Positions 1,008 through 62,230 of a stretch of 64,000 nt of DNA are shown here, piece by piece. Position 1 is the first letter of the stretch. The number at the start of each line of letters is the position of its first letter. The notes below the pieces were generated by a model. That model was not told the DNA's origin, searched no databases, and saw nothing but the letters and a program-made list of their open reading frames with translations. A program made the translations under genes and the position numbers. Source of the DNA: a virus; IMG/VR virus record IMGVR_UViG_3300020401_000001, positions 5,292 through 69,291 of that record; one strand, 5' to 3'.

Positions 1008-1607
1008 TTATTTTAATCCTGTTTGTAAGTCGTTTATTTCCCAGCCAAAAACTGCCTTGAGATACGTCTCAAGCTTAGGCTTGTCTTCTGTTCTGAACAG
1101 TATATCGCAAGCAGTAGAAAAAACGTTGCTGGTCCTGACTGTTATAACCCAAAGAGGGAAGTTAGGATGCGTACTTTCGTCTTCAGCTAAACTCTGAAGA
1201 AAGTCCATTATTCTTTGCTTATGTGAAATGCTGTCATCTAGCCATCCAGTTATCCAGCCGTCTATTGTTTCCCAGCCTTCTTTGAAGTCGTAGTCAAAAT
1301 ATCCACGCCAGCCGTCAGTTGATTTCCAGTACATTTTTTCTATTGGAAATTTCTTTGAGTCTGTGGTGTGGTTTATGTCTTCGTAATATTCGTTCATCAG
1401 TTTGTAATGTTGTGAATAATAATACTTTTCAGAGTCTGCCCACTCCACCCCGTAAGGGATGCAGTGAGCGGCATCTTCAAGTTCACTATTGTCACAAGAT
1501 TCACAAAAAGTAATTTCATTTCCTTCGTGGTTCTCCCCTATTCTGTAACCTTCGTCTTCAGGGTTTATGTCTTCTCCACAAATGTCGCATTTGATTAACT
1601 CGCTCAT
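1008..1607 (-). CDS. hypothetical protein with N-terminal CxxC..CxxC zinc-ribbon-like motif
   Basis: CDIC ... CESC near the N-terminus; 199 aa. Confidence 0.7.
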   Translation of the reverse strand: MSELIKCDICGEDINPEDEGYRIGENHEGNEITFCESCDNSELEDAAHCIPYGVEWADSEKYYYSQHYKLMNEYYEDINHTTDSKKFPIEKMYWKSTDGWRGYFDYDFKEGWETIDGWITGWLDDSISHKQRIMDFLQSLAEDESTHPNFPLWVITVRTSNVFSTACDILFRTEDKPKLETYLKAVFGWEINDLQTGLK

Positions 1608-1614
1608 AATGTTT

Positions 1615-1863
1615 TTATTTAATAAGTTCTTCTATAAATTCTGATTGTACTCCATTCCCTGAGGGAAGTTTTTCTACAAGGTGCCTGATTGCGTAAACCT
1701 TCAGTGAGGATTTTCTGCCTATTTCAGCTCTTGCCTGTTTCTCGGTGTTAAACATTTTAGCTTTGTGAAAAGCTTTAGTTACTCTCCCGTCTTCTCCTAG
1801 CGTCCTGTCCTTACTGTCCTTCAGGATATACGCATGAATTTGATTAAACATTAGCTCTTTCAT
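1615..1863 (-). CDS. hypothetical protein
   Basis: 82-aa ORF abutting both neighbours. Confidence 0.65.
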   Translation of the reverse strand: MKELMFNQIHAYILKDSKDRTLGEDGRVTKAFHKAKMFNTEKQARAEIGRKSSLKVYAIRHLVEKLPSGNGVQSEFIEELIK

Positions 1864-1865
1864 TA

Positions 1866-2354
1866 TTAAAATGCTGAATAAGGTTTAAGTTGATTGCTCT
1901 CGTAAGTCTCCCACTCCCATTCATCATCATGGACAGTCAGCTCATGGAAGTATTTTTTAAGCTTCTCAGAAATAGCGATTAAACGCTTGTCGTCTGTCCA
2001 GTTTTTTATGGTGCAGTCGCTACCAATTCTTGCCAGCATTCCGCCACCTAAATAGTTTTGATATGCTGACATTTTTTCCCCTTGAAAACCGAAGTTGTCA
2101 AGGGAAATTTCTATACCACCTCCTCTATGAGATATTTCCTGTCTCAATACTAAAAAGGAAGATGCGATGTAACCTCCAACAGAGTCGAAAGCTTCAGGGT
2201 TAGTGCCCATCTCGTAAAAGATTCTAAGTAGTCCTAATCCTACTATGGCTCCGCCTGTTGTTTTAATTGCCATGACTAAATAGTCAGGTGCAGTGTCTTG
2301 GTCAGCCCAATTCTTGAGCGCCGTCTTTAAAAAATTGATTAATTTAATTAACAT
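1866..2354 (-). CDS. hypothetical protein
   Basis: 162 aa; preceded by a promoter and the ATTTACACT-ATG leader. Confidence 0.7.
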   Translation of the reverse strand: MLIKLINFLKTALKNWADQDTAPDYLVMAIKTTGGAIVGLGLLRIFYEMGTNPEAFDSVGGYIASSFLVLRQEISHRGGGIEISLDNFGFQGEKMSAYQNYLGGGMLARIGSDCTIKNWTDDKRLIAISEKLKKYFHELTVHDDEWEWETYESNQLKPYSAF

Positions 2355-2382
2355 AGTGTAAATTTTAAATGATTAACTGATT

Positions 2383-3165: not shown

Positions 3166-3426
3166 TTAATATGTTAAATGTTTTTCTAGATTCATGTCGT
3201 ATAGAATTTGCCTGCCCGCTTCATAAACCTTTGCATCTGTGGTAGTATACGGACCGTAAAATTCATCATCATCATCAGCTGTGAACACTTCTATGTCGGT
3301 TATTCTGTCGCCGTTATAGTAAACGCCCTGCGCCCAATAAGTTATATTATTATATATAAACTTAGCTTTGAATTGTATTGTGGAAGCGAAAGCTTCCTGC
3401 TCGATTATTTCTATATTATTTTTCAT
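3166..3426 (-). CDS. hypothetical protein
   Basis: 86-aa ORF overlapping the end of the ArdC-like gene. Confidence 0.6.
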   Translation of the reverse strand: MKNNIEIIEQEAFASTIQFKAKFIYNNITYWAQGVYYNGDRITDIEVFTADDDDEFYGPYTTTDAKVYEAGRQILYDMNLEKHLTY

Positions 3427-5860
3427 TGTTCTCTTTTTTTGATTCTTCTGTTTTTTTGTCTGTTGCTTTCTTGCAAGAAATTATAAACTCTTTTAAAGCT
3501 TCTCTGTCACAATTAAAGTCTTCCTCCCAAAAGTTTCGTTTACCCTCTTGATAGGTGTAGCAGTCTTTAGTTGTTTCAAACTTTGTTGTAAGCTTTGCCT
3601 TTGCCTTCTTCTCGTTCCAGTTGTCAATCCTGAAAGTTATAATTCTTCCGTGTTGTTCTCTCACACGGGGCAAGGTGTCACTGCATCCTTTAACCTTGTT
3701 TTCAATCCAGTAGTGGTCAGTAGTAAAGTTGCTGTCGTCTATCGTTGCGCCGTTCTCTAAAAAGTTATTAAAGAAGTCTTCGCTTTTCTTCTCGCTAATC
3801 TCTCTAGCTAATCTCTCTATGTTTCTTCTAAGCTTCCAGCTTGCCTGCTGTGTTAAACACAAATCAACGTAAGAGTCCAGCATTTCCCAGTCTTCGTTGA
3901 CTACTGGAATAGATATATTAATAACTTTTTCAAACAGCTTGTAGGCTTTTGTTCCTAGCTCAGTTATTAGCTGTTGCTCTTCCTGTTCTTTTGTGTCTTG
4001 CTCAATCACGTTGCCAGCAAACACTTGAAACGTGGAGCCTGTCGTTGCGTAGTTGTCAATCTTAGTTGACAGCCCAAACTCATAGGTTTTGTTAGGCTCT
4101 AAATCCCAGCCTGTACTGTACCTGCCTTCAGGGGTATTGCTTGTATATATTTTAACAAGCTCAAGCTCAACGGCGATGTAGCTTTTGTATTCTTTACCTC
4201 CAACGGTGTAGTATATAATATAATTAGCTGTTCCTGTGCCTTGTTTTAGCTCTACCTTCTCGAAGTATACTTCTTTGGTTATTTCGCTCTGTAACTGTCT
4301 TAAAATGCGCTGGAAAATGTCATCTCTCATTTTTAAGTAGGCATGATTTTTTGTTTGCTCACTCCAGCTTTTTTTGATAGCTTCTAATCCCTGCTTCCCT
4401 GATATGTTTGCACTATCTGAAAGCTCTGCAATAGCTATCTTGTCGTTGTCGTAGTCATAGACTTTGCCGTTGATTGTAACCGTCCTACTGTGAAGCTGTT
4501 CTTCAATCTGAAACGGTAGGTTTCCCTCGGCGTATCTGTACTGGACCTCTTCGATAGCGTCATCCATGTTTTCTATCTCTTGTGAATTTAGCCCAGTATC
4601 TAGAAGCTTTCCAGTATCTAAGTCAAACAGCCTTACGCTATAACCCATGAGATTATCGTCCCAGTAGCTCGGAGCATGTATTATATATATATTACCTCCC
4701 ACGTGGTCCACGCTGAAGCTGTCCACTGTCTGATTAAAAAATCTAAGCGTTGACTCCTCGAAGTAGTTAGGCGCTGTTTCTTTGGTAGCTTCTACCACGT
4801 CCTGAATAGTTATACTCTGAGGCTTTACATTGACTTGCTTTGAAGATAAAACAGCTTGCTTTTTAGCCTTAGGCTTTGACGGGGTTTTGTCCCCGCCTTT
4901 GCCTATTATATATTCTACTGCTTTTTGAGCCTGTCCCATTGCGTAAACTGCTTCACGCTCTTTGTTTTCTAGATGCTTAATCCAGCCGTTGATGTATGCT
5001 TGGCTGTTAAGCTCGCTGTCCTTTGGCTCTAGTCCACAAATACCTGTCAGGTACCATGCGCCAATCTCTGCTACTAATTCCTCTTTGCTGTATAGCTCAT
5101 TTCCAAAGCTAGCCTTTGGCGATGTCACGCCCTCTCTCTTGAGTCTGTTCTTGTGACCTGTACTGTGGATTAGCTCATGAAATAAAGTTTTGTAATAGCT
5201 CGCACTGTCAACGAAATTCTCAGGATTTGGCATTTGCACCTTGTCGATAGATGGGCTGTAATACGCCTGATTTCCGCCGTGTCTCAGTTGAGGTGCCTTA
5301 GTATAATTATTATATATATCATCCGCTGACGGGATAGCTACATGCTCAGGGTTTTGTGGTGTAGCGTCAACCTTTGTCTCGATACCCTCCGCTTGCTCGA
5401 TGTTAAAAACTGTATGATAAATTAAGCTCCAGCACTCAGTTAAAGTCTTGTTTTGTACGTCCTGAGGAAGCTTGTAACCTGCCTTGATAACGGCTCTTTC
5501 ATTGGGGAAATATTTGCCTGTTTCTGTAACTCTGAATGAGCGGTTCCAAAATACAATTCCTGTACCCTTTTCGCCTTTCTTTACATGACCTCCAGCTTCG
5601 GCAATAGCTTTGTAAGTTGCCCATTCGCCCGAACTGTAATTCTCAGCTCTTGCAATAGCACTTAAAAGCATTCTGTTAACGCCTGTATAATTTCTACGGC
5701 TAGTGTAATTTAGCGGAGCATACAATGTGCCGTCAGCCATGCGCCACGGTTTGAACCATTGTAGACCCTCCTCTTTTAAGCCCTTTAAAACGGCTTGATT
5801 AACTTTGTTAAAAGCGTTGTTTTTACTGTTCTTTTTTGTAGTATTAACTTGTGTTTTCAT
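3416..5860 (-). CDS. ardC: ArdC-like antirestriction/polyvalent protein (ssDNA-binding N domain, zincin-like metallopeptidase, extra C-terminal domains)
   Basis: WFKPW, NYTSRRNYTGVNRMLL, W.TYK...GGHVKKGEKG, VFNIEQ, AYYSPSIDKVQMP, TLFHELIHSTGH (HExxH), YSKEELVAEIGA, SQAYINGW. Confidence 0.85.
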   Translation of the reverse strand: MKTQVNTTKKNSKNNAFNKVNQAVLKGLKEEGLQWFKPWRMADGTLYAPLNYTSRRNYTGVNRMLLSAIARAENYSSGEWATYKAIAEAGGHVKKGEKGTGIVFWNRSFRVTETGKYFPNERAVIKAGYKLPQDVQNKTLTECWSLIYHTVFNIEQAEGIETKVDATPQNPEHVAIPSADDIYNNYTKAPQLRHGGNQAYYSPSIDKVQMPNPENFVDSASYYKTLFHELIHSTGHKNRLKREGVTSPKASFGNELYSKEELVAEIGAWYLTGICGLEPKDSELNSQAYINGWIKHLENKEREAVYAMGQAQKAVEYIIGKGGDKTPSKPKAKKQAVLSSKQVNVKPQSITIQDVVEATKETAPNYFEESTLRFFNQTVDSFSVDHVGGNIYIIHAPSYWDDNLMGYSVRLFDLDTGKLLDTGLNSQEIENMDDAIEEVQYRYAEGNLPFQIEEQLHSRTVTINGKVYDYDNDKIAIAELSDSANISGKQGLEAIKKSWSEQTKNHAYLKMRDDIFQRILRQLQSEITKEVYFEKVELKQGTGTANYIIYYTVGGKEYKSYIAVELELVKIYTSNTPEGRYSTGWDLEPNKTYEFGLSTKIDNYATTGSTFQVFAGNVIEQDTKEQEEQQLITELGTKAYKLFEKVINISIPVVNEDWEMLDSYVDLCLTQQASWKLRRNIERLAREISEKKSEDFFNNFLENGATIDDSNFTTDHYWIENKVKGCSDTLPRVREQHGRIITFRIDNWNEKKAKAKLTTKFETTKDCYTYQEGKRNFWEEDFNCDREALKEFIISCKKATDKKTEESKKENNEK

Positions 5861-5898
5861 AGTGTAAATATTAAATTAAAATTTGTGATTAACTGGGG

Positions 5899-6768: not shown

Positions 6769-6796
6769 TATCATTAAAATTTAATTCAATTACACT

Positions 6797-6871
6797 ATGA
6801 AACTATTTAACTTCTTTTTAGGACTATCAATCGGACTATCTGTATCTCTTATACTAATAGTGAACTCATGA
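6797..6871 (+). CDS. 24-aa hydrophobic peptide translationally coupled to groEL
   Basis: MKLFNFFLGLSIGLSVSLILIVNS; TTACACT-ATG leader; its TGA overlaps the groEL ATG (ATGA). Confidence 0.5.
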   Translation: MKLFNFFLGLSIGLSVSLILIVNS

Positions 6872-41587: not shown

Positions 41588-41595
41588 TATCTTTG
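41588..41595 (+). promoter_or_regulatory. -7 promoter element inside the cassette
   Basis: TATCTTTG upstream of the ATG at 41607. Confidence 0.55.
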
Positions 41596-41606
41596 TATGA
41601 TATAAT

Positions 41607-42596
41607 ATGGCAAATACAGGAAGAAAAATATTCACAACGATACGTCAATATGTAAATGGCGTTTGGAATGGTAACGAGAAGTTCAATAGCACTGACGACC
41701 CCGATTACCAATACCCTGTATATGATGAAGCTGAGTGCCCACTACCAGCTCCTCCTGTCCCTAGTCCTATACCAACACCTAGCCCAATACCAACACCTAG
41801 TCCAGTGCCTGTTCCTGTGCCAGCAGTAGCGGAAGTAGTTCCTAATCCAGTACCAAATCCAGCTCCAACACCGACTCCTGCGCCTGTACCTGTTGTTATT
41901 CCTACACCTGCACCAGTTCCAAATCCAACACCCGCACCACAACCAGCGCCGACACCCGCTCCTACCCCAGTGCCAGCGCCTGTTCCTGCTCCTACTTCAA
42001 ACCAGTATGTAGTTCTAGGACATGGAAACACTCCAGAGTCTGCATGTAATGATTTAGGTGCTGACTTATTCTACATTGATGGAGGACAATTAGCTACATC
42101 AACAAATGTATATTACGATGAATGGGGTAATACAAAATCGCAACCACAATATTTTGCTCAATCTGGAGTTGTAAGATATTGGAATGGACAACAGTTTACA
42201 TCTTACGCAAGTTGTAATCAACCAACACCAACTCCTAACGCTCCAACACCTATACCTGTAGCGGCACCAACGGCTAACTGTGGAACCAATATATACTACA
42301 TAAGTGAAGGTAAATTCTATGGTTCTTATTTCTGCCAATCACCTTTCGGAGGAATGGTTGGAGGAGGAGCGGCAACGACTTACCCAATAACTATGGCGGT
42401 TACATCGAACTATCCTGGAAGCGTAAATGCTCAACTAGGAGCTCAACTATGCTACAATGGACAACCTTTCTCTGGAAACGGCTTTGAATATTTAATGAGT
42501 ACCTTCCCTAGTAGTTTTAATGGAAACGGAAGTCATTCGCTAGTAACAATTAATGATGACGGTATAGTTACCGCAGTTAAATATATGACTTGTTAA
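41607..42596 (+). CDS. Pro-rich modular protein
   Basis: Shared N-module, Pro stalk, two Cys-flanked domains. Confidence 0.8.
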   Translation: MANTGRKIFTTIRQYVNGVWNGNEKFNSTDDPDYQYPVYDEAECPLPAPPVPSPIPTPSPIPTPSPVPVPVPAVAEVVPNPVPNPAPTPTPAPVPVVIPTPAPVPNPTPAPQPAPTPAPTPVPAPVPAPTSNQYVVLGHGNTPESACNDLGADLFYIDGGQLATSTNVYYDEWGNTKSQPQYFAQSGVVRYWNGQQFTSYASCNQPTPTPNAPTPIPVAAPTANCGTNIYYISEGKFYGSYFCQSPFGGMVGGGAATTYPITMAVTSNYPGSVNAQLGAQLCYNGQPFSGNGFEYLMSTFPSSFNGNGSHSLVTINDDGIVTAVKYMTC

Positions 42597-51001: not shown

Positions 51002-51009
51002 TAAATTTG
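51002..51009 (+). promoter_or_regulatory. -7 promoter element giving an apparently leaderless transcript
   Basis: TAAATTTG with the ATG at +5. Confidence 0.6.
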
Positions 51010-51013
51010 TGCT

Positions 51014-51754
51014 ATGGCAAACTACGAGAACAAAACAGTTGGGTTTAGTGAAATAAATAACGGCTGGACGTCATTTTATTCTTACATTCCTGAAGATATG
51101 GTCTACATGAAGTCAGACTTTTACACTTTTAAGGGCGGTAATATATACAAACATAACATTGATGACGCTTCTCGTAACAAATTTTACGATAAATATTATC
51201 CTAGCAAGGTTGAAACTATCATAAATGATGACCCAGAAGCTGTGAAAAACTTTAGAACTCTTAATATGGAAGGCTCTTCTGCTTTCTGGAGAGTAGAAAT
51301 AAACACAGACTTAGATAAAGGCGGAGCAACTTATGATGATTTTGAAGAGAGAGAGCGATTGTTTAAAGCTCACATCAGAACTGACAGAGACGACAATCTT
51401 AATTTAGAAAGACTTACCGTGCAAGGGCTAGGTACACTAATATCTACAAATGGCACATCTATGTATTTTAGATTTATAGATAACGCCATTGAGTATGGTG
51501 ACTTCGTTTATAAAATATATGGTAAATCGTATACGTATTTAGGTAAAATTATTGCTGTATTTGAAGATTATATTATGTTAGACTCTATAGCTGACCCAGT
51601 AGACCCTGGTCAATTTTGTTTTGCTACAAAAGACCCAGTGATAGAAAGCTATGGATTGAAAGGATATTTTGGCAGCTTTACGTGTACAAGTTATGAATCA
51701 ACTCCAATAGAATTGTTTGCAGTTGGTACAGAAGTAACGCAAAGCAGTAAATAA
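51014..51754 (+). CDS. probable C-terminal part of the tail stabilisation protein, as a separate gene
   Basis: TVGFSE..NGWTSFYSYIPE, FYTFKGG.IYKHN, N.FY, VKNFRTL..EG, GLKGY, ELFAV. Confidence 0.65.
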   Translation: MANYENKTVGFSEINNGWTSFYSYIPEDMVYMKSDFYTFKGGNIYKHNIDDASRNKFYDKYYPSKVETIINDDPEAVKNFRTLNMEGSSAFWRVEINTDLDKGGATYDDFEERERLFKAHIRTDRDDNLNLERLTVQGLGTLISTNGTSMYFRFIDNAIEYGDFVYKIYGKSYTYLGKIIAVFEDYIMLDSIADPVDPGQFCFATKDPVIESYGLKGYFGSFTCTSYESTPIELFAVGTEVTQSSK

Positions 51755-52700: not shown

Positions 52701-54137
52701 ATGAGTAAAGGAGCATATTACGCAGGAATGGCAACGGCACCGCAGGTGAAGCCAGCAGATTTTTATACGCCATTTGCAAACATGGCAGACAGGATTAGTC
52801 AGCGTGAAATAGAAAAAAGAAAACAAGAGCAAGCTGAACAAGCGGCTAACGAAAAGTTTGCTTTAAGTAGACAAGATAAGCTACAAGACACCATAAACTC
52901 TTCAGGTTACAAAGGGATTGGTATAAACAATCTTGACATGGCTGTCAACGAATATATGTCATACCTACAATCTGACTTTGAAAAAGCTAACGAAGAATTT
53001 AATATTACAAAAGATAAAAAAGCCTTAAGCGCAAAAACATCTGCCTTGCAGTATAGCGCCAAACAAGTGCAAAACTTAGGAAATAGAATATCTACCTTTG
53101 TAAAGAATGATAGCACTCTAGAAGCAAACGGAAAAGCTTCCATGTATAATGACGTTGTTATGGCTATGATACAGGATTTAGGTGAAAACATAGGTTTTGA
53201 AACAGAGTCTAGCGGGGTGCAAAGAATATATACAGAAGGAGAAGATGGTAACAGGAAAACAATAAACGCAAAAACTTGGGACACTTTGTTTACTGCAAGA
53301 CAATCTACTGATTTAAATGGTGTGCTGGAAGATATTGTAGAGATGACACAGCCAAGGCAAATACAGGGTAAAAACAATACTTTTACACGCTATTTAGATT
53401 ACACCAAAGACCCCAACGGAACGCTAACACAATCTCAAGCAGACATATTAACTAGAAGATTACAAAACTTTGAACCGCATGAAGTTTATGATGCTGCTGT
53501 TAGAGCTGGTATTGTGGGTGATGGAGAAAATCAAGTTCCTCTGAGAACAGATTTTAGTGACGAAGGAATTATTGCTAACATAGACCAGATGAGAGAAGCT
53601 CTGGCTATGAAATCTATTGGCGACCTGCAAAACATGTACAGAAATAAGGAAGGAAGTAAGCCTAACACTGGAGGCTCAAGGACTTCATCAAGTAGCTTTA
53701 TAAATTATGACCCTGAAACATTATTATATTCTTATAAAAAAGGCTCTGCTACTTCAGTATTAATGAGAGCTACTTTTACAGGCAAAGATATGATAGGAGA
53801 TGCTCCTGCTGGTAAATCAGAAACTGTTCCTTCGGGCGCTTATATTTCTGACGTAAGATTAACTCCTTATGGTCTAGAAGTTTTTGGTACTATGGCTGTT
53901 AATGAAAAGACTGGAGATATTATGGACATAATGAATTTTAATTCTATGTCCGATGTAGAGGTTAAAAACAAAGGTTTAAAAAGAGTCAATTTTAGAAAAG
54001 TAGTTGACCCAGGAACAAATCAAATGGCTCTTCGACAATTACAATCTGTGTTTGGATTTGATATAGATGAATATAATAACATATTAAAATTAAACAACTC
54101 AACAGAAAATCAAGGACCAGATTATAGCAATAAATAA
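52701..54137 (+). CDS. internal virion/ejection protein (medium)
   Basis: 478 aa, helical; middle gene of a small-medium-large trio. Confidence 0.55.
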   Translation: MSKGAYYAGMATAPQVKPADFYTPFANMADRISQREIEKRKQEQAEQAANEKFALSRQDKLQDTINSSGYKGIGINNLDMAVNEYMSYLQSDFEKANEEFNITKDKKALSAKTSALQYSAKQVQNLGNRISTFVKNDSTLEANGKASMYNDVVMAMIQDLGENIGFETESSGVQRIYTEGEDGNRKTINAKTWDTLFTARQSTDLNGVLEDIVEMTQPRQIQGKNNTFTRYLDYTKDPNGTLTQSQADILTRRLQNFEPHEVYDAAVRAGIVGDGENQVPLRTDFSDEGIIANIDQMREALAMKSIGDLQNMYRNKEGSKPNTGGSRTSSSSFINYDPETLLYSYKKGSATSVLMRATFTGKDMIGDAPAGKSETVPSGAYISDVRLTPYGLEVFGTMAVNEKTGDIMDIMNFNSMSDVEVKNKGLKRVNFRKVVDPGTNQMALRQLQSVFGFDIDEYNNILKLNNSTENQGPDYSNK

Positions 54138-57100: not shown

Positions 57101-59643
57101 CAATGGACCAAGGTATAAGTATTGTAGAAGCAAAAAAGCTTGTTGATGATTATATAGCTCAAGCGTTTGATGCACCTGATAGAGGTACATACATTGCTTC
57201 TTTGGCTGACGGTAAAATATCATCACCCTTTTTAAAGAAAAGAAATAAAAATTTATCTGAAGCATTTAAAAATTACTTAGGAGAGATAAAAGACCCTTTA
57301 TATAATTATGTAAACACGTTAGAAAAAGTTTCTTCTTACATAGCTGCTGTAGAATATCAACAGAATCTTTCAAATAGTCTTTTACGTATGGGTCTAGCTA
57401 CTAAAGAGGGAGGTCCAGGTAAAAAACGACTAGAGTCTGGACAACAGTCTTTTAATATATTAAGTAAACTATACGTTCCTGACGATGTATATGAAGCATA
57501 TCAAGACATACAAAGATTAGCACCAATACAAAATGACTTTTTAAAATACATTGTAACGGCACAAGGAAGTGTTAAATATGGTAAAACTATATTGTCTCCT
57601 ATGACTACTGCCAGAAACTTTATATCTGGAGCTTTAATTACAATGTTAAATGGAGAAAATATTTTAAACCCAGGGAATTGGCAAAACGCATCTAAATCTA
57701 TGAGATTAGCGTGGGATACAAAAAAATCTCCGAAAGAAATAAAAGCTGAGGTTCAACAACTTATTGAACTAGGCGTTATGAAGGATGGTGGTCGTGCTCA
57801 AGAGATTATGGAAATAATCAATGACATATATGCGCTAGAAGGTTTAAGAAGAAAGTCAGGAACCTTAGGAAAAAATGTAGACAAATTCAACAACCTTGTC
57901 ACAAAAGTTTATCAATTTGGTGATGACTATTACAAAACATTTGCTTTTTATCAAAAAAGAGATGCTTTTGTTGAGACTGGAATGTCTGTAGAGGAAGCAA
58001 CTCAAAAAGCCGCAGACAGAGTTAGAAACGGACAACCAACATATTCGCAACTACCTAGAACAATTAGACAGCTAAGAAGGTTTCCTCTTACAGGTACTTT
58101 TGTTTCTTTCCCATATCTTATAACTCAAGCACATTATAATAATTTAAAATTTATTGCAGAAGATTTTAAGGAAGGTAGAAACAAAATGGCTCTCAAGCAC
58201 GCTTTGAATTATAGCATGGCAATAGCAATTCCCTACGGTATTTCTATGGGCTCAAGAGCGATGTTTGACATTACTGACGATGAGGACAACGCATTGAAAG
58301 ATATGATGCCTGAGTATTATAGGGATGCTTCTTTTGTTTATACAGGGAAAGACCCTGAGTCAGGAGAGTTACAATACTTTGACATAAACACTATAGCACC
58401 AAGCGCTCAGATAAAAAAAGGACTAGATATATTAATGAAAGATAGGAATGGCAGAAACCTTCCTGATAAAATAAAACTAGCGGCTTGGGAACAGCTAGAA
58501 CCATATCTTTCTTTAGACTTAACAGCTAACACTGGTATAGCAATAGTGACAGGTGTTGACCCCACAACAGGAAATGTTTTAAGTGATGATATATTCGAAA
58601 GAGTAAAGTGGGGTGTAAACAACATTTCTCCTGGAGCTATTAGAAATGCTGCAAACATAGCTCGTTCACAGGGTTGGTTTGGGTTAGATGAAATAAACCC
58701 TTATACTGGTAGAAGGTATACTGTAGAAGATGAGCTTTTAGCGCTTCTTGGATTTAGAGTTCAAACTACTAGCTGGGATTTACAATTAAAAAATTACGCA
58801 AGGAAAAACAGTATACAATCTTCTGATGCTGTAAAACAGAAAATAAAAAATGTAAAAGGTCAACAATCTAAATCACTTGTAGAAGTAGAGGGTATTGTTA
58901 CAGACTACAGAGAGGACATGTTAGAGTTTTCGGAAAACCTATTATATCAAATAGACGCAGCAAGAAAACAAGGCATGGAAGAGGGAGAGATAGTAAATGC
59001 ACTCTCAGGTGGAGGTTTTAATAGTAGAAACGTAAACGCATTGATGAAAGGAGAAATGCTAGAACTACAAGGTATATCTAAAACACAATACGATAGAGAA
59101 ATAGAAATGCTAAAAGATAGACCTGATTTAGCTGCTAACATGGCTAAAAACCTAGACATGTATAACTTCTTTGTTAATGAAAAGAATTATGATTCTAGGG
59201 TAAGAAAAGACTTGTATAGAATGATGAGAGAAAATGCTTCAGATGAAGATGTTTTAGAGTTAATTAAAAAGTCTAGCATAGATATTTACAAAAGAACACT
59301 TCAAAGTCCAGTTAGCAAAGACTTAAAATATAATCAGGAAGATGTAAGAAAAGCAGAGGTTAAATCTTTTATGAGATACAAAGACATATATCAAGGCTAC
59401 AAAGCTTTACATGACAACCCTAATTATCAAGGGACTGCTCTAGATAGTAAATCTGTTGTTGACATGCTATATGAGACTGACCCTGAAATGAAGTCATTGC
59501 TTCTTTATAAGTATTTAGATGGCAACCACGACAACAACTCTATAAACAGACTTAATAATCTACACTCTTCTATAACTGGCAAGAACATACCAAAGTCTGT
59601 TTTAGAAATGTTACAGTACAGAATACTTTATTATGGTAAATAA
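54139..59643 (+). CDS. large internal virion/ejection protein
   Basis: 1834 aa with Ala/Gly-rich hydrophobic segments and coiled coils; last plus-strand gene. Confidence 0.6.
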   Translation: MDKEVLEDLYKRAVSKGYTKTLEDFTLLINSDEEVLLDNYNYVKEKGYAKPIEDFQALLTEKKNPEVSSIKPTENIPIAFSESNFSLENTKLSSDLFEPEKADEYRQFFKYNGFGVPTIGVEKDTDGQYLKGGFGDFINQLPFGEFIDDQARAWASGKEDADAAEAAAELMNEIGTFSKGNPTVEQANIMLKEMFESQTTPMSDEMKQFQKDLQENGNDAYAAVKAAANNPSAATEYVMRSMRSMFNDDAIATGLATLGTNTALGFAAGGPYGALGGFMRGIPAAMTAMGAQTDMALSFGEFFLEELGDGFTRQDVANLLQDPEKLQKVQNRALARGVSIAAVNAFTAGLGIRIASNVFRAGRKGLRAGLESFAKVTPLDMAGGSLGEFAAQATSGQEFNTAEMALEGLLDPMSSIATTVGGTVIDAGSAPSYKINGGKTTKADFIRRLGAMSDEQLEQANFTVNNDDETWRQVDDRLKDIQFGREIKEIYGDIDDEQTRRLTDLEKEKRTLEKKKSTTAQKRLADVNQEIDEVLEIYKTKREAIGILSAPYYDRNVTSVEDAQKKRKTKEYKQYKTKAKKLAETMGLTVSAMNDGIGGYFLDDGTYLQELSSEVYLEGATYEQAIEYASVLGAITPETQESTIAGMIVGEGEGDASKFNFIIEDNNNLESVRTALDELGIEYSMNTDTGEIGIIDFADGNNVELNEKIGIFVQVLNENNINHEQRLERIRSKYIGAEDRAGNLQNIKENSSKFGKSGESVRYIAEQAEKRNKKYLDEKKKAPKTVQEESKEPVVVKPLPENSERLQPVDRVKKIAKTIRRAFRRTFLRDAGLPKNIGDAIRAYRRKGTAIQNYLSDQQVVFLDMYDAATKSMTKKQERQFGAYVNEALAGNVVDGIFTPEQQNVIESMRLEIDKKTDELVAMLEKYGKNDERTQDLIKTLQDNKGTYIHRTYAAFKDLNYLQEMIGDPALARSAINESYDLLVAETAMDQGISIVEAKKLVDDYIAQAFDAPDRGTYIASLADGKISSPFLKKRNKNLSEAFKNYLGEIKDPLYNYVNTLEKVSSYIAAVEYQQNLSNSLLRMGLATKEGGPGKKRLESGQQSFNILSKLYVPDDVYEAYQDIQRLAPIQNDFLKYIVTAQGSVKYGKTILSPMTTARNFISGALITMLNGENILNPGNWQNASKSMRLAWDTKKSPKEIKAEVQQLIELGVMKDGGRAQEIMEIINDIYALEGLRRKSGTLGKNVDKFNNLVTKVYQFGDDYYKTFAFYQKRDAFVETGMSVEEATQKAADRVRNGQPTYSQLPRTIRQLRRFPLTGTFVSFPYLITQAHYNNLKFIAEDFKEGRNKMALKHALNYSMAIAIPYGISMGSRAMFDITDDEDNALKDMMPEYYRDASFVYTGKDPESGELQYFDINTIAPSAQIKKGLDILMKDRNGRNLPDKIKLAAWEQLEPYLSLDLTANTGIAIVTGVDPTTGNVLSDDIFERVKWGVNNISPGAIRNAANIARSQGWFGLDEINPYTGRRYTVEDELLALLGFRVQTTSWDLQLKNYARKNSIQSSDAVKQKIKNVKGQQSKSLVEVEGIVTDYREDMLEFSENLLYQIDAARKQGMEEGEIVNALSGGGFNSRNVNALMKGEMLELQGISKTQYDREIEMLKDRPDLAANMAKNLDMYNFFVNEKNYDSRVRKDLYRMMRENASDEDVLELIKKSSIDIYKRTLQSPVSKDLKYNQEDVRKAEVKSFMRYKDIYQGYKALHDNPNYQGTALDSKSVVDMLYETDPEMKSLLLYKYLDGNHDNNSINRLNNLHSSITGKNIPKSVLEMLQYRILYYGK

Positions 59644-59673
59644 AAAAAGCGCCTGGGTGTTACGACAGACGCT
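59642..59673 (-). terminator. intrinsic terminator (minus strand)
   Basis: Minus strand AGCGTCTG-N10-CAGGCGCT-TTTTTT; the stem has a U.G pair on minus but a C.A mismatch on plus. Confidence 0.8.
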
Positions 59674-59718
59674 TATTTACACTATAAGTAAAGGTTGAGA
59701 ACCTTTAACAAGTTAATC
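59642..59718 (-). ncRNA. candidate trans-acting small RNA (~77 nt)
   Basis: Own TAGCTTTG element at 59730-59723, an 8-bp hairpin, an unpaired UAUAGUGUAAAUA segment, then the terminator; no ORF. Confidence 0.5.
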
Positions 59719-59727
59719 GGTACAAAG

Positions 59728-60180
59728 CTACAAAATTTCTTTCAATAATTCACCCACCTTTTCACAATCTTTTTGGTTCCGTGGCATAAATAGTTTGGCG
59801 GTAATATCACTATCATTCAAAAACTTTTTGAACAGCTTCCATCTTATTGGAAAAGACTCGTTTGGATTACCCTTACATTCTATAATAAATCGTGGAGGAT
59901 ACTCTTTATCTACAAAATCAGGAGTATATTTTATTGGTAGTATTTTTTTATTACCCCTGTTGTGTAATTGTTTCTTTGCTTTCGTTTTTTCGAACGAATC
60001 GTTGTCAGAATGAAATCCGTCTACAATAACATAAGTCTGACCCTCGTAAGTAAATGGCACTTTTATCTTCTTTAGAATCCTGTACATGTGTAATTCTAAC
60101 TTACTTGCAAACTCTATGTTATCTTCTTTTACTTTTTTTGAGCGGGTAATTTGTCTTTTTGCTCTTCTTCTTCTAGTCAT
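59728..60180 (-). CDS. T7 endonuclease I-like PD-(D/E)xK nuclease/resolvase
   Basis: FASKLE, YE, YTPDF, IIECKG. Confidence 0.75.
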   Translation of the reverse strand: MTRRRRAKRQITRSKKVKEDNIEFASKLELHMYRILKKIKVPFTYEGQTYVIVDGFHSDNDSFEKTKAKKQLHNRGNKKILPIKYTPDFVDKEYPPRFIIECKGNPNESFPIRWKLFKKFLNDSDITAKLFMPRNQKDCEKVGELLKEIL

Positions 60181-60616
60181 CTACATTAATTATCTCAGTC
60201 ACAACAAAGCCCTGAGACACTAATTCTTCTTCTGCTTCCTCTATAGACTTTGAATAAACAACAGTTTCATTTAGAATCTGTTCTTCTTGTTTATTAAAAT
60301 GCATTGTTGTGACATTGTATTTATTTATTCCATTTAAATCGTTCCAGTACATCATTTCTTTTAAGTCTTTCAAAAACCCTGGGTGATTTGCAAAACAATA
60401 TAAGGCTTCTAAATGAGAACACTCTAACTCATCGCTTAAAAATTCTACGGAAGCTGTTGGAAATGTTGTAATTTCAATACCTTGGTTTGAATCTAAGTCT
60501 ATAAAAAAGTAAAGCTTATCCATAGGAACTCTTTTTTTGCGCATCTCTTCCACGTATTCTGATAATACTTGTGCTTCGTAAATGTCAGGGTTCCTATTGA
60601 AAAGTATTCTTCGCAT
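60173..60616 (-). CDS. hypothetical protein
   Basis: ORF 60173..60622; ATG at 60616 lies just after TATATTTG (60627-60620). Confidence 0.65.
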   Translation of the reverse strand: MRRILFNRNPDIYEAQVLSEYVEEMRKKRVPMDKLYFFIDLDSNQGIEITTFPTASVEFLSDELECSHLEALYCFANHPGFLKDLKEMMYWNDLNGINKYNVTTMHFNKQEEQILNETVVYSKSIEEAEEELVSQGFVVTEIINVDD

Positions 60617-60633
60617 ATACAAATATACGAAGA

Positions 60634-61026
60634 CTATAGGCTCTCTTTTAGCTTGGTAATTTCGTATTTGTCGGCAAGTGTCATTAAAAAATCACGAACA
60701 GGAGCTTCATGCTTGTGTATTACAGCATCTCTATAAACATACTTTACGTAACAGTTTTCCATGTCTATAATATCTGTTGTTTCTGTAGTGTGGAAACAGT
60801 AAACAACCCATGCTGGTCCATTTGTTTTTTCCCAACAATCTGCTAATCTTTCGAATAAAAGCTTTTGCCCTATCGGAACTTTCATCCCCTGCTTCTTTAC
60901 TTCGAATATTATAAGATGTTTTTCATTAAATTCTAGTATGGCATCTATATCTGTAGGATGTATCTTACTGTTGCCGATACCTTTGAAGTTTAAAACTTGC
61001 TTGATTCTCTCAGGAAACTTAATCAT
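60634..61026 (-). CDS. PD-(D/E)xK nuclease-like protein
   Basis: PTDID ... IIFEVK ... GQ; start MIKFPER with the TTTACACT-ATG leader. Confidence 0.6.
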   Translation of the reverse strand: MIKFPERIKQVLNFKGIGNSKIHPTDIDAILEFNEKHLIIFEVKKQGMKVPIGQKLLFERLADCWEKTNGPAWVVYCFHTTETTDIIDMENCYVKYVYRDAVIHKHEAPVRDFLMTLADKYEITKLKESL

Positions 61027-61066
61027 AGTGTAAAAATATTGACTAAGATAACAATAAAAATGTTTT

Positions 61067-62230
61067 CTAAGCAAAAATATGTGTTAATCTTGCTATTTGT
61101 CCGTGCTGAGTGTGATGTAAGAAACCTTCTATAGCTCTGACGGCATGTTGATACCCATTTCTGTGATGCCAAGAGTCTGAACCACTGGGTGACCTTAAAC
61201 TTTCTACAGTAACTCCAGGAAAATCTTTTGATGTTTTGTGGTGGACATGATGCGTATAATAATATCTGTGTATTGTTTCAGACCATAGTTTTTTAGCTTC
61301 TTGAGCCATTAGCAATGGTAGGTCCTGTGACTTTGCTCCATCTCCATGCGTTGTACCTATTAAATTGTTGTGATATTTAAAATATTTTCTGTGAGCTATG
61401 CTAACATCAAATGTTATGTTTTTGCATTTAGAAAAACAAGCAAGGATAACTTGAGCTAAAAAGAAACCATTAGTGTAGTCGTGATTGCTAGGATTAAACA
61501 TAAAATGAACGTCAGCTGTCTGCAACAACCTGTCAATCACAGTTATGTACATGTCTCTAGCTTTTAAAAAATTTTCATACCACATACCATCAGTATCTTG
61601 TGGTGTTCCAGATGTAGTTAATCTTTTTGGTGTGTCAATATGAAGAACATCATTCCCAGCTATAAATAATATCTTTTCTATTTTAAAACCTTCTGCTTTT
61701 TTTAATATACCAGCTACTCCTTCATGGACTCTTTTGATAGCAATATCGCTATTGTATTCCTCGCCAGTCTCATAAGCACGTGCAAGTTTTCCGATGTGAA
61801 TATCAGCAGGGTCGACAACAAGAAGATATTTATCGTCTTTAACACGTATGGGCTTACGATTGATTTTATATTTAATAGGATATTTTTTTATTGCATCTAC
61901 GTGGTCTCTAAGCATTTGTTCAAAAGATGGTCCTTCGGCACTTGGTCTGAATTGTATTGACCAGTGTTTGCCTTTATACCACGCTTGTCTTACTGTCGAT
62001 GGGTCTATACCTACCTTTTCTGTTTCTTGGACTAAAGCAGGGTTTTCTTGTTTGATGGCATGCCTGTGTAGATACTGAGAAAACATTCTCCTACCTTTCT
62101 CTATAGTCATATCCATCTCTAAAGCTTCTATGGCTACTTCGGCAATTCTTGTCTTATTGTTTGTAACACCTTTATCCCAAAGGTCCATACATTTATCAAG
62201 AAATATTTGATTTTCAGATTTCCGTTTCAT
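61067..62230 (-). CDS. calcineurin-like metallophosphoesterase
   Basis: DIHIGK, GNDVLH, SNHD, THGD, HHVHH. Confidence 0.85.
   Translation of the reverse strand: MKRKSENQIFLDKCMDLWDKGVTNNKTRIAEVAIEALEMDMTIEKGRRMFSQYLHRHAIKQENPALVQETEKVGIDPSTVRQAWYKGKHWSIQFRPSAEGPSFEQMLRDHVDAIKKYPIKYKINRKPIRVKDDKYLLVVDPADIHIGKLARAYETGEEYNSDIAIKRVHEGVAGILKKAEGFKIEKILFIAGNDVLHIDTPKRLTTSGTPQDTDGMWYENFLKARDMYITVIDRLLQTADVHFMFNPSNHDYTNGFFLAQVILACFSKCKNITFDVSIAHRKYFKYHNNLIGTTHGDGAKSQDLPLLMAQEAKKLWSETIHRYYYTHHVHHKTSKDFPGVTVESLRSPSGSDSWHHRNGYQHAVRAIEGFLHHTQHGQIARLTHIFA

What the first reader, a model, noticed from the sequence alone, without database searches (positions are those of the whole stretch)
59642..59730. 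Candidate small RNA antisense to the start codons of four phage ORFs
Seen on the minus strand: TAGCTTTG (overlapping the endonuclease stop), then from +5 GATTAACTTGT-[TAAAGGTT ctc AACCTTTA]-CTTATAGTGTAAATA-[terminator]-U tail. The unpaired UAUAGUGUAAAUA pairs, with a U.G at the G of AUG, with TATTTACACTATG at the ardC start (5858-5870). It also pairs with ATTTACACTATG (2352-2363), TTTACACTATG (61024-61034) and TTACACTATG (6790-6799, the peptide coupled to groEL). Its first 8 nt, GATTAACT, are the reverse complement of AGTTAATC, which lies at the same +5 position after both early promoters. Inference: a phage-encoded trans-acting sRNA that shuts off early translation.
Basis: partly seen in the sequence, partly recalled or inferred. 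Interest (0 to 1): 0.8.

Follow-up and report, generated by a model that had tools for sequence, protein, structure and literature searches.

The report
Candidate antisense RNA against phage ArdC
A short gene-free gap at the end of a marine phage's early genes looks like a small RNA gene whose two free arms match, in antisense, the start of the phage's own anti-restriction gene, so it could switch that gene off, but no RNA data yet show that it is made.

Summary
The 84-nt convergent gap 59644-59727 reads, on the minus strand, as a -7-type box over the endonuclease stop, an 11-nt free 5' arm, an 8-bp hairpin, a free stretch, then a terminator. That free stretch is complementary to TTACACTATG, which occurs four times in the 69-kb genome, each time at a gene start.

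New here:
- The RNA matches the ArdC mRNA in two co-linear blocks around the hairpin, at -10..+4 and +9..+18. ArdC is by far the best of 75 start regions (ddG -21.8; 0 of 65 arm-shuffled controls reach it).
- The box at the stop codon is kept in 23 of 26 distinct relatives that have a gap, and in 1 of 58 without one.
- Intermediate relatives keep box, 5' block, seed core and a terminator with compensatory changes and U.G pairs on this strand.
- Protein N-terminal extensions suggest that leader and seed changed together in one lineage.

Against:
- No RNA run holds the phage.
- The nearest relative shows uncompensated edge changes.
- Half the seed doubles as the opposite-strand terminator's U-tract.
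- Energy statistics for the other three targets are weak.
- The leader DNA of the informative relatives could not be fetched.

Verdict: a plausible small antisense RNA centred on ArdC, about 50%, and unproven.

The parts
59723..59730 (-). TAGCTTTG: a Bacteroidota-type -7 box (TAnnTTTG) overlapping the TAG stop of the DUF1064 endonuclease gene. It is the putative promoter of the small RNA.
   Evidence: Sequence. The box is kept within stop..+35 in 23 of 26 distinct relatives with a convergent gap of at least 50 nt (19 exactly on the stop), and in 1 of 58 with a shorter gap. There is no TTG at 17-21 nt upstream (read). A single box is near chance in this genome.
59708..59718 (-). 5' arm GAUUAACUUGU (putative RNA start near 59718). 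It is unpaired in the fold.
   Evidence: Fold. Its nt 2-11 are complementary to ArdC +9..+18. The block TAyyGATTrAC is kept in L099 and L106-L109, and partly in L100.
59689..59707 (-). Hairpin 1: an 8-bp stem with a 3-nt loop.
   Evidence: Relatives have a hairpin at this place with a different sequence (L107, L102, L103).
59674..59688 (-). Seed stretch CUUAUAGUGUAAAUA. It is antisense to ..TATTTACACTATGA at ArdC and to TTACACTATG at three other starts.
   Evidence: The core GUGUAAA is kept in L106-L109, and AUAGUuUAAAUAA in L102-L105. Its 3' part AAAUAA is also the A-tract of the terminator, which is the U-tract for the + strand.
59641..59673 (-). Intrinsic terminator: stem, 10-nt loop UCGUAACACC, U7. 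It is shared with the endonuclease mRNA and probably also serves the convergent 1834-aa gene, whose stop is at 59641-59643.
   Evidence: In an alignment of 5 sequences there are 12 pairs, 3 with compensatory double changes, and U.G pairs on this strand only.
59728..60180 (-). DUF1064 / Holliday-junction-resolvase-like endonuclease, the last gene of the leftward early/replication module.
   Evidence: Pfam PF06356, E 6e-7; phrog_190, E 3e-11.
5857..5870 (-). ArdC start region, -10..+4. It pairs with the seed over 14 bp, including one G.U at the G of AUG.
   Evidence: ArdC is identified by PF08401 + PF18818 and phrog_7245.
5843..5852 (-). ArdC +9..+18 (ACAAGTTAAT). It pairs with the 5' arm, nested with the seed helix.
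2352..2363 (-). Start region of the 162-aa early gene: 11 nt of perfect complementarity to the seed, with TTAATC at +13..+18.
   Evidence: Cofold ddG -9.0, rank 10 of 75.
6790..6799 (+). Start region of the 24-aa hydrophobic peptide, which is coupled to GroEL by an ATGA overlap.
   Evidence: Cofold ddG -10.7, rank 6.
61024..61034 (-). Start region of the 130-aa gene.
   Evidence: Cofold ddG -9.4, rank 7. This gene has its own promoter and leader only in the window/L099 lineage.
1590..1622 (-). Start region of the 199-aa early gene: an imperfect seed site plus AGTTAATC at +8..+15.
   Evidence: Cofold ddG -16.0, rank 2 of 75. Context.
5887..5894 (-). AGTTAATC 4 nt after the -7-like box of ArdC. 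A second copy lies at 2371-2378, in the same position for the 162-aa gene.

Best explanation
The gap encodes a minus-strand RNA of about 78 nt. It could be made from the box over the endonuclease stop codon, or released as the 3' end of the endonuclease mRNA. It ends at the shared terminator.

The RNA has two single-stranded arms on either side of hairpin 1. Both arms base-pair with the ArdC mRNA from -10 to +18, with 14 bp across the start codon and 10 bp over codons 3-6. The hairpin stays folded as a three-way junction. This would occlude the ribosome-binding region of the first early gene.

Four other early start regions that share parts of the two motifs would be hit more weakly: the 199-aa, 162-aa and 130-aa genes and the peptide before GroEL.

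The RNA gene sits at the far end of the early/replication module, so the RNA would build up after ArdC has done its work at entry.

Shown: the sequence anatomy, the complementarity, the conservation of box, seed core and terminator, and the strand bias of the terminator.

Inferred: that the RNA is made, that it pairs in vivo, the direction of the effect (repression), and the timing.
For: (1) Anatomy: box, free arm, hairpin, free stretch, terminator.

(2) Complementarity:
- All 4 TTACACTATG in the genome are at ORF starts, and the only other TTACACTAT is the gap copy in the opposite sense.
- The longest antisense matches of the gap RNA to 77 start regions are 12, 11 and 10 nt at ArdC, the 162-aa gene and the 130-aa gene. 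The best same-sense control match is 9 nt.

(3) Second block: the 5' arm is complementary to ArdC +9..+18, nested with the seed helix.
- Cofold ddG for ArdC is -21.8. The next values are -16.0 and -14.1, and the median is -5.1.
- 0 of 65 controls with both arms shuffled reach -21.8; their best is -16.6.
- Genome-wide, two-block similarity to any of 75 start regions with a sum of at least 22 occurs in 5 pairs. Three of these are true leader or paralogue pairs and one is this one.

(4) The box at the stop codon is kept in 23 of 26 relatives with a gap and 1 of 58 without, while the rest of the gap is unalignable between lineages.

(5) Family:
- L099/L001 and L106-L109 keep box, 5' block, seed core and a homologous terminator.
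- L102-L105 keep box and seed (12 of 13 nt), but between a different hairpin and a different terminator. There the seed is not next to the terminator.

(6) Terminator: 3 of 12 pairs have compensatory changes, and its U.G pairs would be C.A mismatches on the + strand.

(7) Co-occurrence: the leader motif at true starts is found only in the window and G001. G002-G005 have neither the motif nor the seed.

(8) Indirect covariation:
- Where the window's leader reads ACACT-ATG, this is compatible with ..TTACACG.. That fits L106's seed (..ACGUGUAA..) better than the window's seed.
- It is also compatible with C-A-R-T-C where the window's leader has TAATC, which would match the A-to-G change in L106's 5' block.
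Against: - No RNA evidence exists. 20 DNA runs hold the stretch and no RNA run is listed as holding it.
- The nearest relative (G001/L099, about 95%) has changes at the edges of both helices with no compensation. The seed has A to U opposite the U of AUG, and ArdC +18 has T to C. Its matches are 11 + 9 nt.
- The 3' half of the seed (AAAUAA) is also the U-tract of the + strand terminator, so part of its conservation has another cause.
- Duplex-energy statistics for 'four targets' are weak. The fourth-best energy is reached by 18 of 400 random genomic 23-mers and by 4 of 400 shuffled seeds.
- A single TANNTTTG is near chance (99 against 88), and no -33 TTG lies at the usual spacing.
- My prediction that the 5' arms of L106/L107 pair with codons 4-6 of their ArdC was not met. 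Their N-termini are MKTNSN and MKNNST.
- Other lineages with a gap RNA (G002-G005) show no anti-start signature beyond A/T runs.
- The covariation argument rests on back-translated residues, not on DNA.
Confidence: 0.5

Rival explanations
1. The gap is only the 3' untranslated end of the endonuclease mRNA plus a bidirectional terminator. On this view the inverted similarity to the ArdC start is chance or a decaying relic of an old inverted duplication, and has no regulatory role.
For: - Part of the seed is the terminator's A/U-tract.
- One AT-rich two-block match of equal score exists elsewhere in the genome.
- The edge changes in G001 are uncompensated.
- The gap region showed no listed differences in a variant 2.3% divergent overall, but 2 differences were expected at most, so this says nothing either way.
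Against: - A chance two-block match would have to fall in this 84-nt gap out of 138 kb of both strands, roughly 1 in 1000 (reasoned).
- The box at the stop codon is conserved only where a gap exists.
- The seed is kept in L102-L105 away from the terminator.
- 0 of 65 arm-shuffled controls reach the ArdC energy.
- The lineage-specific leader residues fit the lineage's own seed.
Confidence: 0.3
2. The shared motifs are binding sites for a phage protein rather than RNA-RNA partners. AGTTAATC/GATTAACT, at the same distance from three -7 boxes, would be an operator or start-site element of one early promoter class. TTTACACTATG would be the operator of a RegA-like translational repressor, or of a DNA-binding repressor.
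For: - The 8-mer lies 4 nt after the box in the ArdC promoter, the 162-aa-gene promoter and the gap promoter, in either orientation.
- It is enriched (12 against 4.25).
- Three AGTTAAT copies lie 45 nt apart at the ArdC start, beginning at 5894, 5849 and 5804.
- Pairing of the RNA's 5' end with the leader copy would cross the seed helix.
- Concerted change of motif copies is also expected for a protein's sites.
Against: - TTACACT abuts the ATG with zero spacing in 4 of 4 cases, which points to the RNA level.
- In the gap the two blocks keep the order and orientation of ArdC -10..+18, but 22 nt apart instead of 6. A hairpin explains this for RNA; one protein footprint does not.
- The + strand copy lies after the + strand terminator hairpin, so it would hardly be in + strand RNA.
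- No candidate regulator was identified; the early proteins have no family match.
Confidence: 0.13
3. The two inverted copies (ArdC start and gap) flank the 15-kb early module and serve DNA recombination or inversion.
For: They sit at the two ends of the leftward module.
Against: - The identical blocks are only 12 and 10 nt long and are interrupted by a hairpin.
- No recombinase was seen among the proteins scanned (the whole genome was not scanned).
- No joints were seen in four DNA runs over 59300-61300.
Confidence: 0.03

Closest known systems
c4 antisense RNA of phages P1 and P7
   Same: It is a phage-coded small RNA that acts in trans. Complementary stretches are presented by its fold, and it binds around the ribosome-binding site of a phage mRNA and blocks translation (passages read in the review PMC12197685). 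Its similar size of about 77 nt is recalled, not taken from a call.
   Different: - No match to any Rfam family, c4 included.
- c4 governs immunity through the antirepressor in temperate enterobacterial phages. Per the review it targets ant mRNA, and here the target is an anti-restriction gene 15 kb away in a marine flavobacterial-type phage.
- Expression is unproven here.
Cis-encoded phage antisense RNAs (P22 sar, lambda OOP)
   Same: They are short phage RNAs that repress a phage gene by pairing (passages in PMC12197685).
   Different: They are transcribed opposite their target and are fully complementary to it. The gap RNA is encoded elsewhere and has two short matches of 14 and 10 nt.
3'UTR-derived small RNAs with a promoter inside or at the end of the upstream gene
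   Same: The promoter overlaps the end of a coding sequence, and the terminator is shared with the mRNA. One case acting on a phage mRNA is CisR, of which I saw the abstract only, in the listing (PMC13250501).
   Different: The known cases are bacterial and mostly depend on Hfq. That Bacteroidota lack Hfq is recalled, not tested. Here the RNA and its target both belong to the phage.
T4 RegA translational repressor (recalled, from no call)
   Same: It gives the same outcome: several early mRNAs are shut off at their start regions through a shared short motif that includes the AUG.
   Different: RegA is a protein. No such protein was found here.
Bidirectional intrinsic terminator between convergent genes
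   Same: A hairpin flanked by an A-tract and a U-tract, directly after the stop of the + strand gene.
   Different: A terminator alone needs no box at the upstream stop codon, no first hairpin, and no match to a distant start region.

Membership tests
Trans-acting base-pairing small RNA (phage c4-like in function) | A discrete transcript with its own start and end | tested here: inconclusive
   The terminator is clear. The promoter-like box is conserved in 23 of 26 relatives with a gap, but a single box is near chance and there is no -33 element. No RNA run holds the stretch.
Trans-acting base-pairing small RNA (phage c4-like in function) | Complementarity to the start region of a target encoded elsewhere | tested here: met
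   14 + 10 bp with ArdC -10..+18, rank 1 of 75, and 0 of 65 shuffled controls as good.
Trans-acting base-pairing small RNA (phage c4-like in function) | The pairing stretches are single-stranded in the RNA's own fold | tested here: met
   The centroid leaves nt 1-11 and 31-44 unpaired. The MFE pairs only a few of these bases.
Trans-acting base-pairing small RNA (phage c4-like in function) | Seed and target change together in relatives | tested here: inconclusive
   There is no compensation in G001. The indirect fit in the L106 lineage comes from in-frame N-terminal extensions only.
Rfam C4 family or any other curated RNA family | A match to the covariance model at the gathering score | tested here: not met
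   There were 0 matches at gathering thresholds over the whole window. At E up to 10 over 59560-59800 all six matches are far below their gathering scores.
Intrinsic terminator | A G+C-rich stem followed by a U-run, with the stem kept by compensatory change | tested here: met
   Stem plus U7. 3 of 12 pairs are compensatory in 5 sequences. The consensus scan missed it because its loop is 10 nt.
Bacteroidota-type promoter | A -7 box TAnnTTTG | tested here: met
   TAGCTTTG at 59730-59723. Such boxes precede many genes here.
Bacteroidota-type promoter | A -33 TTG about 17-21 nt upstream (the consensus is recalled) | tested here: not met
   The nearest TTG lies 12 nt upstream of the box (read).
Protein-coding gene on the + strand of the gap | A conserved open frame | tested here: not met
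   There is no ATG in the window. Relatives have ATG followed by 4 to 33 codons, with unlike peptides between lineages (L106 vs L107).

The most novel reading that the evidence does not exclude
Marine flavobacterial-type podophages of this clade keep a fixed slot for a fast-evolving small RNA gene. Its promoter lies over the stop codon of the last early gene, and its end is the terminator shared with the convergent late genes. In each lineage the RNA would be an inverted mimic of the start region of that lineage's own first early gene, ArdC. It would work as an RNA timer that turns off anti-restriction and other early proteins by occluding their start codons, without Hfq-type help. The seed and several leaders would evolve in concert.
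Probability: 0.3. Interest if true: 0.75.

Novelty: new member of a known kind. Interest (0 to 1): 0.55.

Why it matters
Post-transcriptional control by phage-coded RNAs is documented almost only in enterobacterial, Vibrio and Pseudomonas systems. The review read here does not contain the word stem 'Bacteroid' at all. My two paper searches listed no case in phages of Bacteroidota, though neither search used that term.

If this RNA is real, it would be a first example of a phage of that phylum turning off its own anti-restriction gene with an antisense RNA. It would also give a sequence rule for finding such genes in metagenomes: a box over the stop codon of the last early gene, two hairpins, and a free stretch that mirrors the first early gene's start. 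The conserved slot with unrelated sequences in other lineages suggests there are more such RNAs with unknown targets.

Tried and rejected
- Rfam at gathering scores and at E up to 10: nothing credible.
- A protein gene on the + strand of the gap: rejected.
- A 15-nt match of G001's terminator half to a late gene is not kept in the window's genome, so it is chance.
- L194, found with the L106 seed pattern, is a chance match inside a coding region.
- The leader pattern AGTTAATC-N-TTTACACTATG in IMG/VR gave 8 stretches. One is the near relative. Four are unrelated contigs, three with sigma-70-like hexamers and a purine-rich stretch before the ATG. Three look like chance.
- The gap RNAs of G002-G005 show no anti-start signature beyond A/T runs. 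Sites with AAACAATG in G003 are not clear gene starts.
- Prediction of I/L-V-N at ArdC codons 4-6 in L106/L107: not met.
- The 162-aa gene's homologues are 161-162 aa long, with no N-terminal extensions, so they give no leader information.
- The Cellulophaga phage phi38:1 (42% endonuclease identity) has another gene order, so its published transcriptomes would not bear on this gap.
- Sequencing runs: no RNA holder is listed.
- Four DNA runs laid as contigs on 59300-61300 showed no listed difference between 59550 and 59775 and no joints. However, 39 difference rows were not shown, so this is uninformative.
- The DNA of the ArdC leaders of the L106/L107 genomes could not be reached.
- Supplementary files of papers were not opened.

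Full report
Setting. The window is bases 5292-69291 of a single 69,291-nt virus record whose last 60 nt repeat its first 60. Genes run leftwards from ArdC (3416-5860; PF08401 + PF18818, phrog_7245). They continue round the record's end to a primase/helicase, an exonuclease, two unknown genes and a DUF1064 endonuclease (59728-60180). Genes run rightwards from 6397 through GroEL to a 1834-aa virion protein that stops at 59643. Many genes are preceded by TAnnTTTG boxes, some only 3-16 nt from the ATG. The nearest cultured relatives by the endonuclease are Cellulophaga, Maribacter and Flavobacterium phages at 37-42% identity. The host is therefore most likely a marine member of the Flavobacteriia. 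This is inferred.

The finding lies in the 84-nt gap between the two convergent last genes.

The observation.
- TTACACTAT occurs five times against 1.24 expected, and 0 of 100 shuffles reach five.
- All four TTACACTATG copies sit at ORF starts.
- The fifth copy is on the + strand of the gap. It would therefore be present, as its complement, in any minus-strand RNA that runs from the endonuclease stop to the terminator.
- The minus strand folds into two hairpins with free stretches before and between them (-19 kcal/mol, z -2.9). The + strand of the same region is less remarkable (z -1.2).

What is new about the pairing. It also returned ACAAGTTAAT at ArdC +9..+18, which is complementary to nt 2-11 of the RNA.

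The two ArdC blocks (-10..+4 and +9..+18) and the two RNA arms are in nested, antiparallel order. The RNA can therefore bind both with hairpin 1 left standing. Put another way, the + strand of the gap is an inverted copy of the ArdC start with a 19-nt hairpin inserted.

Cofolding of the 78-nt RNA with 75 start regions (-40..+30) gave these values:
- ArdC: ddG -21.8 kcal/mol, with exactly this structure.
- The 199-aa early gene at 1008-1607: -16.0. It has an imperfect seed site plus AGTTAATC at +8.
- The gene at 52701: -14.1.
- The peptide: -10.7, rank 6.
- The 130-aa gene: -9.4, rank 7.
- The 162-aa gene: -9.0, rank 10.
- Median of all 75: -5.1.

With both arms shuffled and the hairpins kept, the best ddG over all 75 regions had a median of -11.2 and a minimum of -16.6. 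None of 65 controls reached -21.8.

I also made a genome-wide search for two exact blocks shared between any start region and any other place. A sum of at least 22 nt occurred in five pairs: two reciprocal hits between paralogous late genes, the ArdC and 162-aa-gene leaders, one AT-rich pair, and ArdC with the gap. So one chance hit of this strength per genome is plausible. That it should fall in this particular 84-nt gap is not; I reason this as roughly 1 in 1000.

A simpler statistic is weak. The fourth-best duplex energy of the 23-nt seed stretch is reached by 18 of 400 random genomic 23-mers and by 4 of 400 shuffled seeds. I therefore read the element as centred on ArdC, with the other start regions as weaker candidate targets.

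Is it a transcription unit? A single TANNTTTG means little here (99 against 88 expected), and there is no TTG at the usual distance upstream. Conservation is what gives the box weight.

I collected 160 loci through the endonuclease: 80 from IMG/VR and 80 from metagenomes. After collapsing loci identical in the first 60 nt after the stop, and dropping loci cut within 60 nt of the stop or without a stop, 90 distinct loci remained. A convergent ORF could be placed in 84 of them.
- Of 26 with a gap of at least 50 nt, 23 have the box within 35 nt of the stop, and 19 have it exactly over the stop.
- Of 58 with a shorter gap, 1 has it.
- Downstream of the box the gaps of different lineages cannot be aligned. 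All eight that I folded show a free 5' stretch, a first hairpin and a terminator (z -2.5 to -6.2).

The terminator of the window's group was aligned over 5 sequences. It has 12 pairs, 3 of them with compensatory double changes. Its U.G pairs would be C.A mismatches on the + strand. The hairpin is therefore selected as RNA on the endonuclease strand.

These points favour a small RNA gene, or at least a functional 3' end, in this slot. They do not prove a separate start.

Relatives of this particular RNA.
- L001/L099 (about 95% endonuclease identity) keeps everything but differs at four bases and one 3-nt insertion. One change weakens the seed's edge. ArdC +18 has also changed in that genome. 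Its matches are 11 + 9 nt with no compensation.
- L106-L109 (77-78% identity in the re-run tblastn) keep the box, the block TAyyGATTrAC, the seed core and a homologous terminator with the same loop. Their seed reads ..CAUUACGUGUAAAA.., so its complement ends in ..TTTACACGTAATG.
- L102-L105 (about 78%) keep the box and AUAGUUUAAAUAA, which is 12 of 13 identical to the window. There it lies between a different hairpin and a different terminator, about 20 nt from the terminator. Its conservation there is not explained by a U-tract role.
- The + strand ATGs in these gaps open frames of only 4 to 33 codons, with unlike peptides between lineages (L106 vs L107).

Covariation. The decisive test needs the ArdC leaders of L106-L109. 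That DNA could not be fetched. Protein data give an indirect view.
- L106's endonuclease and an ArdC of 581 aa (P0149) both have 69,292 nt as their longest contig, which is the length of L106's contig.
- P0149 begins MKTNSN. Members of the same 90% cluster were called from an upstream start, and so spell the leader in frame as ..V Q S K Q S N L I T R I M.
- The window's leader in the same frame reads V N H K F stop F N I Y T M.
- T-R before I-M is compatible with ..ACACG.., where the window has ..ACACT-ATG. L106's seed has C where the window's seed has A.
- Q-S is compatible with C-A-R-T-C where the window's leader has TAATC. L106's 5' block has G where the window has A.
- Both readings depend on codon choices that I cannot see. 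I put them at roughly even odds each.
- A further ArdC (P0009, lineage not linked) has H-V-M before its start. This is compatible with CACGTAATG.
- L107's ArdC (P0020; longest contig 68,771 nt, as for L107) begins MKNN. That is compatible with the A-run after ATG in the complement of its seed, but it is weak evidence.
- My own prediction, that the 5' arms of L106/L107 would match ArdC codons 4-6, failed.
- GroEL's nearest other relative (L213, 69%) keeps the peptide. Its leader reads ..ATACACATTTATG, so the leader motif does drift between lineages. The seed that goes with it is unknown.

Rivals.
1. Plain 3' end and terminator with a chance or relic match. This is favoured by the dual role of AAAUAA, the weak statistics for three targets, the uncompensated changes in G001 and the lack of RNA data.
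2. Protein sites.
   - For: the 8-mer AGTTAATC/GATTAACT lies 4 nt after the box in three promoters, in either orientation.
   - For: three AGTTAAT copies lie 45 nt apart at the ArdC start. This suggests a promoter-proximal DNA element of one early promoter class.
   - Against: it does not explain the zero spacing of TTACACT to the ATG in four genes, or the changed spacing of the two blocks in the gap.
   - A mixed picture is possible, with the 8-mer as a promoter element and the seed as antisense.
3. A recombination site. This is unlikely.

Comparison with what is known. The closest functional analogue is the c4 RNA of P1/P7, a small phage RNA whose exposed complementary stretches bind around the ribosome-binding site of a phage mRNA (passages of PMC12197685). 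P22 sar and lambda OOP are cis-encoded. The gene layout resembles 3'UTR-derived small RNAs. There is no sequence or structure match to any curated family. I therefore file this as a new member of a known kind by mechanism, not as a member of any known family.

I found no report of such an RNA in phages of Bacteroidota in two full-text searches (listings and abstracts only, neither search used that term), or in the review, which does not contain the word stem 'Bacteroid'.

Verdict. I give it about 50%. The decisive data are the leader DNA of two already assembled relatives and any strand-specific RNA data.

Noticed in passing
window 6796-6870 (+); L213 238-310: A 24-aa hydrophobic peptide gene whose stop overlaps the GroEL start (ATGA). 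The peptide is almost unchanged in a relative whose GroEL is only 69% identical, so it is a real, conserved gene.
   Followed up: partly
window 5804, 5849, 5894 (minus-strand starts): Three AGTTAAT copies exactly 45 nt apart, spanning the ArdC leader and first 20 codons. About 0.02 would be expected in 100 nt of one strand.
   Followed up: partly
L054, L060, L062, L070, L121, L004 and others, just after the endonuclease stop: Other lineages keep a -7 box over the endonuclease stop, followed by two strong hairpins of unrelated sequence (z down to -6.2). These are possible further small RNAs with unknown targets. No anti-start signature was found in G002-G005.
   Followed up: partly
window 59656-59665 (-); L106 3018-3027: The 10-nt terminator loop UCGUAACACC is kept in L106-L109 and in L099 (UUGUAACACC) while the stem changes by compensation. 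A conserved loop on a terminator is unexplained.
   Followed up: no
L092, L094, L096, L095: Unrelated viral contigs carry AGTTAATCAAT..AAAGGA..TTTACACTATG before small genes; L094 and L096 also show sigma-70-like hexamers upstream (L092 is cut there, L095 has none). The same two motifs therefore occur in a quite different leader type.
   Followed up: no
window 51002-51016, 60620-60630, 41588-41609: Several genes have the -7 box only 3-11 nt before the ATG, which implies leaderless or near-leaderless mRNAs.
   Followed up: no
protein P0156: An ArdC of the L107 lineage is filed in NCBI under a Methylophagaceae MAG on a 56,614-nt contig. This is probably a phage contig binned with a bacterial genome.
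   Followed up: no
window 61027-61079 (-) versus L106 1620-1640: The 130-aa gene has its own box and 45-nt leader only in the window/L099 lineage. In L106-L109 it follows or overlaps the exonuclease gene directly, so the leader cassette was gained or lost as a unit.
   Followed up: partly
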